NCBI GenBank assembly: GCA_964016885.1
Contig: OZ024742.1
Coordinates: 352,718,001-352,782,000 of the forward strand
Reading direction: 5' to 3'
From: Eledone cirrhosa
Lineage: Eukaryota
Length of the DNA: 64,000 bases
This document shows positions 6,673-12,520 of the stretch, one piece after another. The notes under the pieces were generated by a model that ran no database searches, was not told the origin of the DNA, and saw nothing but the letters and a program-made list of their open reading frames with translations. The stretch's first letter is position 1, and each line of letters begins with the position of its first letter. Both the position numbers and the translations under genes were made by a program.

Positions 6673-6861
6673 ATATATATATATATATATATATATATAT
6701 ATATATATATATATATACATATATATATATATATATATATATATATATATATATATATATATATATATATATATATATATATATACATATATATATATAT
6801 ATTTATATATATATATATATATATATATATATATATATATATATATATATATATATATATA
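6673..6861. repeat. (TA)n microsatellite (left target flank of the PLE)
   Basis: Direct reading of the sequence. Confidence 0.95.
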
Positions 6862-6902
6862 CAATATTAAATAAATGGAAACTATATTTATAAAACCATA
6901 TT

Positions 6903-6968
6903 TATTTCATTATATATATTTCAGGGATATCATATTAACAATATGCTATGCCTTCCTCAGACAAAATA
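6903..6968 (-). ncRNA. Type-I hammerhead ribozyme at PLE 3' end
   Basis: Mirror copy of the motif at 12309-12374. Confidence 0.72.
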
Positions 6969-8324
6969 CAATATAAACAGTTTTATAGATAAATAGATTC
7001 GACATACCGTGACAACATCGACTTGCATTTGAAGAGGTTGATTTGGCAGTGAAAAAATTGTACACAGAGAGAAAGAAAGAGAGAAAAAAGAAAGAAAGAC
7101 AGAAAACGAAGAAAAGGAAGAAAAAAAGAAGAAATGCATGGAACAAAATAGAGAGATGGAAAGATAAATAGAAGAACTTCATGTAAAGAAACAGAAAGAG
7201 ATATATATATAGAGAGAGAGAGGAAATAGAGATAGCTACATATATATATAGAAAATTAGGTAGTGGGAGGTCTGTTGAGTAAATGTATCAATGATACATT
7301 TATTTATTTATTTATTTATTTATTTAGCTCTAGTATTAATGTAAGGGAGATATATATATATAGAGAAAAATATAGAGAGAGAAAAAATATAGCGAGAGAA
7401 AAAATTTAAAAATAACCAGATATATGCGAGGCGTAAAAACCCTATGTTTTAATGTAGAGGTATTAGTATTTATAAAACATCCACTATATTGTAAATATCA
7501 GTATTCCTGAATGAGACAAGTATCCATAGTGTGTGAAAATTAATGATCTTATGTTTAGTTTTTTAAAAAAATTCATATGTTTATGTGATAGCTACAAATA
7601 TCCATGTGAATCTACATGATCAACTCTGCAAACCCTAAGTTCACGGAAAACAATCTCAATGTGGTATAAAAATTTGAGTATACATATATGTGTATTATTA
7701 TTCCTGTCTTTACTCTACAAGATTATCTATCAAGCAGAAATAGAGAGCAGATTTCAATATACTAATAAAAATATATATCAGAAACAAAAAATAACAATAA
7801 TAATAAGTAATAATAAAATAGAAAACTAAAAAAATATTACGAAAGAATATTACATATTAAAAATATTACATATTAAAAAATTTACATATTAAAAATATTT
7901 AATATTAAAAATAAAAATATTAGAAAATACTACAATAATAAAAAATAAAAATAAAAATAAACCACAAAGATCAACCCTTCAAAATTAATTGACAATATAT
8001 TGCCAAGTTCAATTATAAGCATCAGAGTCGAAAAACAGATAAAGCCCCAAAAAATTATCTATCAAATCACATCTAGCAAAGATCATTTCAAAAAGTTTAG
8101 GATGCCCAATTTGGTCTACATGTGTTCTTATATTTAATATAGAAGTTAATCTAGTGTAACGTTTATTCGAAATATTTGGAGCATCAGCTGTTAGGGTAGC
8201 TTAATTTTTCATGAGGAGTGTTTAAATAAAAATAAAATAAAAATAAAAAATTAAAAAAATAAAAAGAAGGAATCAAAGATTTATCAGCTAGTTTCCCATA
8301 TAAATATAAATCAAACTAAATATA

Positions 8325-10538: not shown

Positions 10539-12308
10539 TTTTCCAGTTATAATATAAAGCGCTCAACAGTATTAGAGCAAGATACATGGAAAGTTATATT
10601 TAAAATTGTTGGGTTACAACTAGTAAATATTTATAACTGATATAAAAGCACTCGACAAATATTATAATAACCACAAGAATTCTTTCACAGATCCAAGCAA
10701 AAAATCTTCAACGGCACTATCAGGCGTACTCTGGCAACTTAAGCTAGATAACGTTAGATATTCCACGGCTTGGAATATAGTCTCAAGAGGGATTCCTTTT
10801 AATTCATCCTCTGAGACATGTGACCTCTGCGCAGAGGAGATATTCTTTATACTAAAATCTAAAAATTCCCTTAATCTACGGACAAATTTATTCAGTTGTT
10901 GCAAACATAGATTAAACTCAACGTTTAAATATAAATTTAAATTTAAAATGTAGTATATTTAGTTTGATTTATATTTATATGGGAAACTAGCCGATAAATC
11001 TTTGATTCCTTCTTTTTATTTTTTTTATTTTTTATTTTTATTTTATTTTTATTTAAACATTCCTCATGAACAATTAAGCTACCCTAAAAGCTGATGCTCC
11101 AAATATTTCGAATAAACGTTACACTAGATAAACTTCTATATTAAATATAAGAACACATGTAGACCAAATTGGGCATCCTAAACTTTTTGAAATGATCTTT
11201 GCTAGATGTGATTTGATAGATAATTTTTTGGGGCTTTATCTGTTTTTCGACTCTGATGCTTATAATTGAACTTGGCAATATATTGTCAATTAATTTTGAA
11301 GGGTTGATCTTTGTGGTTTATTTTTATTTTTATTTTTTATTATTGTAGTATTTTCTAATATTTTTATTTTTAATATTTAATATTTTTAATATCTAAATTT
11401 TTTAATATGTAATATTTTTAATATGTAATATTCTTTCGTAATATTTTTTTAGTTTTCTATTTTATTATTACTTATTATTATTATTGTTATTTTTTGTTTC
11501 TGATATATATTTTTATTAATATATTGACATCTGCTCTCTATTTCTGCTTGATAGATAATCTTGTAGAGTAAAGACAGGAATAATAATACACATATATGTA
11601 TACTCAAATTTTTATACCACATTGAGATTGTTTTCAGTGAATTTAGGGTTTGCAGAGTTGATCATGTAGATTCACATGGATGTTTGTAGCTATCACATAA
11701 ACATATGAATTTTTTTAAAAAACTAAACATAAGATCATTAATTTTCACACACTATGGATACTTGTCTCATTCAGGAATACTGATATTTACAATATAGTGG
11801 ATGTTTTATAAATACTAATACATCTACATTAAAACATAGGGTTTTTACGCCTCGCATATATCTGGTTATTTTTAAATTTTTTCTCTCGCTAAATTTGTTC
11901 TCTCTCTATACTTTTCTCTCTCTATATATATCTCCCTTACACTAATACTAGAGCTAAATAAATAAATAAATAAATAAATGTATCATTGATACATTTACTC
12001 AACAGACCTCCCACTACCTAATTTTCTATATATATATGTATCTATCTCTATTTCCTCTCTCTCTCTCTATATATATATATATTTCTGTTTCTTTACATGA
12101 AGTTCTTCTATTTATCTTTCCATCTCTCTATTTTGTTCCATGCATTTCTTCTTTTTCTTCCTTTTCTTCGTTTTCTGTCTTTCTTTCTTTTTTCTCTCTT
12201 TCTTTCTCTCTGTGTACAATTTTTTCACTGCCAAATCAACCTCTTCAAATACAAGTCGATGTTGTTACGGTATGTCGAATCTATTTATCTATAAAACTGT
12301 TTATATTG

Positions 12309-12374
12309 TATTTTGTCTGAGGAAGGCATAGCATATTGTTAATATGATATCCCTGAAATATATATAATGAAATA
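12309..12374 (+). ncRNA. Type-I hammerhead ribozyme in the inverted pLTR
   Basis: tattttgt-CTGAGGA-AGG-c-ATA-g-CATATT-gtt-AATATG-a-TAT-c-CCT-GAAA-TATATA-TA-atgaaata: 8-bp stem I (two G:U pairs), long stem II, palindromic stem III. Confidence 0.75.
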
Positions 12375-12520
12375 AATATGGTTTTATAAATATAGTTTCC
12401 ATTTATTTAATATTGTAAATATACTCCAAATATTTGTCGAGTGCTCTTATATCAGTTATAAATATTTACTAGTTGTAACCCAACAATTTTAAATATAACT
12501 TTCCATATATATATATATAT

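What the first reader, a model, noticed from the sequence alone, without database searches (positions are those of the whole stretch)
6860..12506. Intact PLE built as a 5.6-kb hairpin with a hammerhead at each end; the inverted arm reads through the element's own 3'-to-5' junction
Seen: an uninterrupted RT-GIY-YIG ORF, ~1.75-kb near-identical inverted arms, and a well-formed HHR ~45 nt from the outer end of each arm. The right arm continues past the point where the left arm stops (12418-12506) into sequence matching the 5' leader of the ORF (10586-10663). The unit (~3.8 kb) is therefore tandem or circularly permuted, with the HHR just upstream of the junction. Established: inverted pLTRs, tails and HHRs are known in PLEs (Cervera & de la Pena 2014; Craig et al. 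2021). Inference: a young, possibly active copy made from a tandem or circular, ribozyme-processed RNA with fold-back priming. Read-through transcription would give 1.75 kb of dsRNA.
Basis: partly seen in the sequence, partly recalled or inferred. Interest (0 to 1): 0.72.

Follow-up and report, generated by a model that had tools for sequence, protein, structure and literature searches.

The report
Two-armed Penelope insertion, likely circular template
This is an ordinary, likely no longer mobile copy of a known kind of jumping gene (a Penelope-like retrotransposon) lying head-to-head with a shortened mirror copy, but its many sister copies show that one arm ends at one fixed site and the other at a second, which likely records two copying enzymes working on one RNA, likely a circle for the full-length copies.

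Summary
In detail: 737-codon ORF, 1.76-kb arms 98% alike, identical hammerheads, and an 89-nt tail on one arm. It is a Hydra-clade Penelope-like element. This layout is published, and this scan met it before on other DNA. The locus is not special: its arms are more diverged than 22 of 27 comparable pairs, its protein departs at two invariant residues, and it lacks the upstream promoter and hammerhead.

The family is informative. 100 of 102 typed head-to-head insertions pair one short end with one tailed end. The two arms are nearest kin (1.0% versus 6.8%). Both arms stop at an initiator-like site or both pass it (37 of 41), so both were likely primed on one RNA; fold-back priming does not fit.

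Longer-than-unit arms run through the initiator (47 of 51) and the ribozyme cut site without scars, stop 2.8 times more often on the second pass, and carry upstream repeats with no excess differences from their downstream ones. This favours the unproven circular-RNA model for full-length copies, beside linear templates for mini-hairpins. No RNA data were available.

The parts
6860..10663 (-). Long arm: 3804 nt of a 3815-nt Hydra-clade PLE unit, from inside hairpin 1 to the short end
8325..10538 (-). Single ORF, 737 aa: telomerase-like RT, CxCx5C linker, C-terminal GIY-YIG endonuclease; open, with 9 private replacements
10663..12506 (+). Inverted 5'-truncated arm: last 96 codons of the ORF, 3' UTR, hammerhead, tail; 1-nt overlap with the long arm at 10663
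12418..12506 (+). 89-nt tail between the short end (12417) and the tailed end (12506); equals the 5' leader 10663-10586 plus 11 nt
12309..12374 (+). Type I hammerhead motif (core 12317-12323 and 12355-12358, predicted cut after 12366, palindromic stem III, predicted to act as a dimer)
6903..6968 (-). Identical hammerhead motif in the long arm
12225..12229 (+). Initiator-like TCACT, likely transcription start; hot spot of arm 5' ends in the family; points outward
7048..7052 (-). Same initiator-like site in the long arm, pointing outward
12423..12444 (+).
10559..10578 (-). Similar hairpin 2, 7-8 nt after the tailed-end position; this copy carries a private variant
6673..6859 (.). (TA)n target, left side
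12507..12523 (.). (TA)n target, right side

Best explanation
This is one insertion of a Hydra-clade Penelope-like retrotransposon into a (TA)n tract, likely made when the element's enzyme cut both DNA strands and copied one RNA twice from two fixed start sites 89 nt apart, and that RNA was likely a ribozyme-made circle. Shown: each end lies at one of two fixed sites, one of each per insertion, and the arms are nearest kin and share their 5' limit. Inferred steps: (1) a tandem copy is transcribed from the initiator in its upstream repeat; (2) its two hammerheads fold as a dimer, cut out a 3.8-kb monomer, and it is ligated; (3) two RT molecules, primed by the two nicked strands, start at the short and the tailed site; (4) each cDNA stops at an independent point, more often once it must displace earlier cDNA; (5) the two cDNA ends are joined head-to-head with little or no microhomology. 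Uncut linear transcripts primed at their 5'-proximal sites would give the abundant 470-bp mini-hairpins bounded by the initiator. Here the short-site cDNA stopped 11 nt before completing a round, so the copy got no upstream promoter or second hammerhead and is likely a dead end as a template.
For: One short plus one tailed end in 44 of 44 typed pairs from 60 position-ordered loci and 56 of 58 from 80 ORF-start loci plus the window (p 2e-27). (TA)n outside both ends in 96 of 100. Arms of one insertion 1.0% apart against 6.8% between insertions; 76 of 81 in the lowest tenth; no depletion of differences near the junction (0.87% near, 0.54% far). Both arms inside the initiator limit in 18, both beyond in 19, discordant in 4 (p 1e-7). 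37 of 135 first-pass arms but 4 of 51 second-pass arms stop at the initiator (p 0.003); 3 of 53 partners of full-length arms do. Second-pass stopping rate 0.212 against 0.076 per 100 nt over the same sequence (p 8e-7). Upstream repeat, downstream repeat and inverted arm carry 11, 11 and 11 private changes in 9404 columns of 44 loci, though loci differ by about 7% there. 131 of 132 passages through the initiator are seamless and 59 of 59 upstream cut regions have no indel. 0 of 241 arms end within 4 nt of the cut. Only 2 shared junction pairs among 116 junctions. None of 140 loci has hairpin 2 behind a full unit. In 221 arms the 8 common hammerhead variants avoid all 11 core positions. In vitro, a PLE protein cuts and extends both strands from two internal start sites and is predicted to be a dimer (PMC11167929).
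Against: No RNA evidence: circle, cleavage and transcription start are all inferred from DNA. Frangieh et al. found hammerhead cleavage dispensable in vitro, no reads ending at the cut, and no strand preference between the two start sites. Naiad elements thrive without canonical hammerheads. No arm reaches two units; the longest extension seen is about 2.2 kb and the longest values are uncertain. 83 of 188 arm differences have both alleles elsewhere in the family, which leaves room for two RNAs from close sources or for alignment noise. Exact-pattern counts are not 1:1: 4966 short ends against 2974 tailed ends, unexplained, though the patterns miss variants. Full-length arms are more often tailed (48 of 78) although a trailing RT should be hindered. 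Two exceptions to the rule (L103, L133), 14 pairs untyped, and 28 of 140 loci gave no pair. One variant breaks my predicted first pair of stem II in 86 of 221 arms. L108 shows that the RT can jump at the initiator.
Confidence: 0.58

Rival explanations
1. Same two-site priming, but the template is always linear. Longer-than-unit arms come from the RT jumping from the RNA's 5' end (initiator or ribozyme cut) to the matching place or to the 3' end of the same or a sister RNA.
For: L108 holds a jump from the initiator into the ORF start. A precise jump also predicts identical upstream and downstream repeats. Cleavage was dispensable in vitro.
Against: No excess of stops at the initiator on the second pass (4 of 51), none at the cut (0 of 241), and no scars at either place, so jumps would have to be near-perfect. 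The higher stopping rate is already seen before the initiator is reached (0.14-0.19 per 100 nt), though first-pass partner arms are similar there.
Confidence: 0.25
2. Long linear read-through RNA from tandem source copies, started upstream of the repeat, with the repeats and arms kept alike by gene conversion; the tailed end is primed on the transcribed (TA)n flank.
For: This is the scenario outlined in PMC11167929. Tailed sources followed by (TA)n are common. The window's arms have no difference in the 290 nt next to the junction.
Against: [quoted passage not shown]
Confidence: 0.12
3. Fold-back priming: one cDNA turns on itself and copies the second arm (first reader; self-priming on an antisense template was proposed in PMC3846280).
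For: Arms are nearest kin; 13 of 44 unbiased pairs are near-symmetric and many junctions overlap by a few bases.
Against: The short-ended arm is the longer in 22 of 44 pairs and here, so the tail cannot be copied from it in place; the symmetric pairs mostly sit at the initiator limit.
Confidence: 0.04
4. Assembly artefact or chance.
For: No listed contig bridged this junction.
Against: The arms differ at 25 sites and the same layout with different junctions recurs in 100 typed pairs.
Confidence: 0.01

Closest known systems
Hydra clade of C-terminal EN+ Penelope-like elements (Craig et al. 2021, PMC8557442; passages, section 11 and part 2 of 59 of the supplement read), including Hydra-1_Obim and Penelope-13_HM
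   Same: RWK-like, DKT, CxCx5C, CxxC and CxH motifs, no CCHH, (TA)n target, hammerhead near the 3' end. Penelope-13_HM is listed with a 5'-truncated inverted copy and a hammerhead on each strand. A tail at one end only is drawn as typical.
   Different: Unit 3.8 kb with a 1.46-kb 3' UTR (Hydra 'generally <3 kb'); tail 89 nt against 30-40; hammerhead sequence unlike Hydra-1_Obim, with U-A instead of C-G at the base of stem III. The paper gives no count of end pairing.
Poseidon of Anolis carolinensis, PAc (Frangieh et al. 2024, PMC11167929; parts 1-2 of 4 read)
   Same: Two internal RT start sites that bound the tail, both strands cut and extended, AT-rich targets, predicted dimer.
   Different: Different clade; start sites inside the ORF there, in the leader here. 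The in vitro work saw no coupling of site to strand and no need for cleavage, and the main text does not mention circles.
Circular-RNA model for PLE tandems (Cervera and de la Pena 2014, PMC4209133; part 1 of 4 and passages read)
   Same: Dimer-type hammerheads in the flanking repeats; proposed ligated circles as templates for more-than-unit copying.
   Different: Proposed as tentative in the passages read; the stopping statistics here are an indirect genomic test of it.
Penelope of Drosophila virilis and Adineta vaga (PMC2377424, PMC3846280; passages read)
   Same: Promoter in the upstream repeat, partial tandem flanked by inverted repeats, optional tail on one inverted repeat, a TCACT initiator-like motif in the A. 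vaga repeat.
   Different: Other clades; inverted arms were read as self-priming on antisense RNA, which this family's arm lengths do not fit.
L1 twin priming (recalled, not read)
   Same: Both target strands prime cDNA on one RNA and the products are joined.
   Different: L1's two cDNAs cover different parts of the RNA; here they overlap and start at two fixed internal sites.

Membership tests
EN+ Penelope-like elements | Single ORF with telomerase-like RT | tested here: met
   Best fold match is TERT, E 1.6e-9; YRDD and motif A aligned. Pfam blank.
EN+ Penelope-like elements | GIY-YIG endonuclease | tested here: met
   NIVY...YVG, R, H, E, N conserved and strand-strand-helix model; Atlas neighbours carry GIY-YIG. 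No direct HMM hit.
EN+ Penelope-like elements | Partial tandem and inverted repeats with a one-sided tail | tested here: met
Hydra clade | RWK motif and DKT in place of DKG | tested here: met
   RWR at 42-44 (RWK or RWR in most relatives) and DKT at 118-120
Hydra clade | CxCx5C linker, no CCHH, CxxC and CxH around E and N | tested here: met
   C596, C598, C604; no Cys between GIY and YIG; CDLC before E, CKH after N; judged by eye
Hydra clade | (TA)n target | tested here: met
   96 of 100 pairs
Hydra clade | Canonical hammerhead motif | tested here: met
   Same layout as File S2 entries; core conserved in 221 arms; not an Rfam hit
Hydra clade | Generally under 3 kb (typical, not strict) | tested here: not met
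   Unit 3815 nt
Hydra clade | RT phylogeny with reference Hydra, Neptune, Nematis and Poseidon proteins | not tested
   No named reference proteins were among the tool results
Active hammerhead ribozyme | Self-cleavage | not testable with these tools
   Only conservation and a weak monomer fold
Non-LTR retrozymes | Non-coding tandem units each with a hammerhead | tested here: not met
   Coding unit, head-to-head, no multimer in 140 loci; definition

The most novel reading that the evidence does not exclude
Autonomous Penelope-like elements of this family regenerate their promoter-bearing upstream repeat by rolling more than once round a hammerhead-made 3.8-kb RNA circle that is copied by two RTs at once, one from each of two fixed sites, while uncut linear transcripts yield only mini-hairpins. 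The ribozyme would then be the switch between productive and abortive transposition.
Probability: 0.45. Interest if true: 0.72.

Novelty: new member of a known kind. Interest (0 to 1): 0.44.

Why it matters
The locus itself is ordinary. The family matters because how Penelope-like elements rebuild their pseudo-LTR, and what their hammerheads do, are stated open questions, and the one in vitro study found no need for cleavage. Thousands of recent copies here give countable footprints that separate two template classes and name exact places to look in RNA: a start at 12227, a ligated joint at 12366/12367, and RT starts at 12417 and 12506. If right, an animal retrotransposon runs through a covalent RNA circle with coupled two-strand priming.

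Tried and rejected
No RNA holder listed. Contigs of four runs laid on the junction did not bridge it and cannot show ends. Rfam found no hammerhead. Pfam, NCBIfam and PDB sequence searches did not name the protein.

Cap-G test at the initiator was inconclusive: G:A was 30:33 in the first 100 of 450 matches against 12:22 in the first 100 of 212 control matches, counted by hand; one search tested 13 in place of 12 by my slip and gave p 0.40.

Apparent recurrent differences between upstream and downstream repeats were projection artefacts; direct alignment left 104 singletons and 6 recurrent sites, mostly at microsatellite edges. The first ORF-start pattern hit only the window because of a private variant. 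Genome-wide end counts did not give 1:1. My count of hairpin 1 variants failed on a faulty pattern, so covariation in the hairpins was not tested. A cluster of 7 of 78 second-pass stops in the 17 nt round the short site, including this locus, is not specific to short-primed arms (4 of 30 and 3 of 48), so 'ran into its own primer' was not adopted.

Literature: searches showed no paper, among those read or listed, that counts end pairing or stopping rates. Subscription papers (such as Arkhipova 2006, cited in those read) were not seen, nor 57 of 59 parts of the Craig supplement, nor the Frangieh supplement, where Fig. S2 on genomic ends may bear on novelty.

Full report
What is there. The window lies in a 3.0-Gb animal genome; the closest named proteins are from Argonauta hians, so the host is likely a cephalopod (inference). 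On the minus strand, 10538-8325 is an open frame of 737 codons. Family libraries did not name it, but a model built from 71 sequences has pLDDT 89.9 and matches telomerase RT best, and the C-terminal part shows GIY-YIG residues. The motifs are those given for the Hydra clade in section 11 of Craig et al. 2021. The arms match at 1730 of 1767 columns. The left arm ends at 6860, equal to 12417 (the short end). The right arm runs on to 12506 (the tailed end) through 89 nt that equal the ORF leader plus 11 nt. Both ends abut (TA)n.

The hammerhead. Stem I 12309-12316 pairs with 12367-12374, the core is at 12317-12323 and 12355-12358, and the predicted cut follows 12366; the left copy is identical. 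Rfam missed it and its free fold is unremarkable. Closing stem III costs 4.4 kcal/mol and the stem is palindromic, the dimer type described by Cervera and de la Pena. Across 221 arms, 8 positions vary in 10 or more arms; none is among the 11 core positions, one is the tolerant position 7, one turns a G-U pair into G-C, and one breaks my predicted first pair of stem II. This suggests selection on the fold but does not show cleavage.

The layout is known. Craig et al. draw an inverted 5'-truncated copy and a tail at one end only as typical, and list a Hydra element with an inverted copy and a hammerhead on each strand. Frangieh et al. showed in vitro that the tail is the stretch between two internal RT start sites. 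Earlier notes of this scan report the same layout and end rule on other DNA.

The family. One 24-mer of the hammerhead has 3193 exact matches and the ORF-start motif 208. I fetched 60 loci round the first 99 hammerhead matches (set A) and 80 further loci from the first 100 ORF-start matches (set B). Of 116 head-to-head pairs, 102 had both ends typed: 44 of 44 in A and 56 of 58 in B plus the window pair one short with one tailed end; 14 pairs were untyped, 28 loci gave no pair, and a few pairs belong to an older subfamily. The short-ended arm reaches further in 22, the tailed in 9, and 13 are equal in A, which rules out simple fold-back. Arms of one insertion differ by a median 1.0% against 6.8% between insertions (81 pairs), with no depletion near the junction. 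83 of 188 differences have both alleles elsewhere, a caveat.

Two template classes. Arm 5' ends pile up at the A of TCACT, 12227: 37 of 135 first-pass arms stop within 45 nt of it, at about seven to ten times the background rate. The same motif was read as an initiator in A. vaga. In set A both arms lie inside this limit in 18 pairs, both pass it in 19, and 4 are discordant, so one RNA sets the limit for both arms (inference). Of 78 arms that complete or nearly complete a unit, 51 reach the initiator a second time and 47 pass it. They stop at a flat rate 2.8 times the first-pass rate over the same sequence, leave no scar at the initiator (131 of 132) or at the cut (59 of 59), and no arm of 241 ends within 4 nt of the cut. 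Upstream repeat, downstream repeat and inverted arm have equal private changes, 11 each downstream of the initiator and 4, 3 and 10 upstream of it (44 loci). Junctions are rarely shared. No locus has the sequence that follows the tailed end placed behind a full unit; if hairpin 2 guides that start, as an earlier unchecked note suggests, a linear transcript could not supply it there. A circle explains all of these; a near-perfect template jump would too.

Against the circle. There is no RNA evidence. In vitro work found cleavage dispensable, hammerhead-free Naiads prosper, no arm reaches two units, one locus shows a jump at the initiator, and genome-wide end counts are 4966 against 2974.

This copy. 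32 of 87 ORF-bearing loci have a full open frame; shared changes are mostly silent (112 to 52) and private ones mostly not (74 to 147), so source lineages were under selection and the family was recently mobile. The window's protein has 9 private replacements, more than 27 of the other 31, two of them at positions 263 and 519 that are invariant in 14 of 14 distant relatives. Its arms differ at 16 of 1081 clean columns, more than 22 of 27 other pairs with 500 or more columns. Its long arm begins downstream of the hammerhead and initiator, so it has no upstream promoter or second ribozyme, and both its initiators face outward. It is likely a dead end, and the dsRNA needs an outside promoter.

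Verdict. Observation confirmed, interpretation partly supported. A new family of a known clade in a known layout. I put two-site priming on one RNA at about 0.8 and a circular template for full-length copies at about 0.55 overall. Interest 0.44, carried by the family statistics and not by the locus.

Noticed in passing
window 18999-21558: A second head-to-head PLE insertion of another family (Cys linker and CCHH-type GIY-YIG, 255-aa frame), arms 97% alike, with a hammerhead-like core facing outward at 19081 (-) and 21476 (+).
   Followed up: partly
window 59637-60378: Fragment of another Hydra-type family, 49% identical to this protein.
   Followed up: no
window 5254-5610 (-): GIY-YIG fragment of a CCHH-type PLE ending in a TA tract, Pfam E 4.7e-8.
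   Followed up: no
window 27645-56910: 64-bp satellite, about 458 copies over 29 kb.
   Followed up: no
window 12521-12665: 145-nt imperfect palindrome directly right of the tailed end's TA tract; no hammerhead hit.
   Followed up: no
window 57037-57696 and 12746-12855: Head-to-head copies of a short repeat, with a further copy beside this element; possibly a SINE.
   Followed up: no
window 17965-18037 (-): tRNA-like match above the Rfam cut-off, 35.3 bits, possibly a SINE head.
   Followed up: no
L036, L049, L059, L064, L086, L087, L090: 7 of 52 tailed arms in set A are little more than the tail and stop at or near the short site, as if blocked by the other RT or by hairpin 1.
   Followed up: partly
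L108:4854-5342: Arm that runs from the short end to the initiator and then jumps into the first ORF codons: a template switch at the likely RNA 5' end.
   Followed up: partly
L134, L139, L155: Copies whose 3' ends lie 30-65 nt beyond the tailed site, near the ORF start, some as small tandems.
   Followed up: no
L175, L185, L186, L189: The same junction sequence at the initiator in four places; a hot spot or a mobile mini-hairpin.
   Followed up: no
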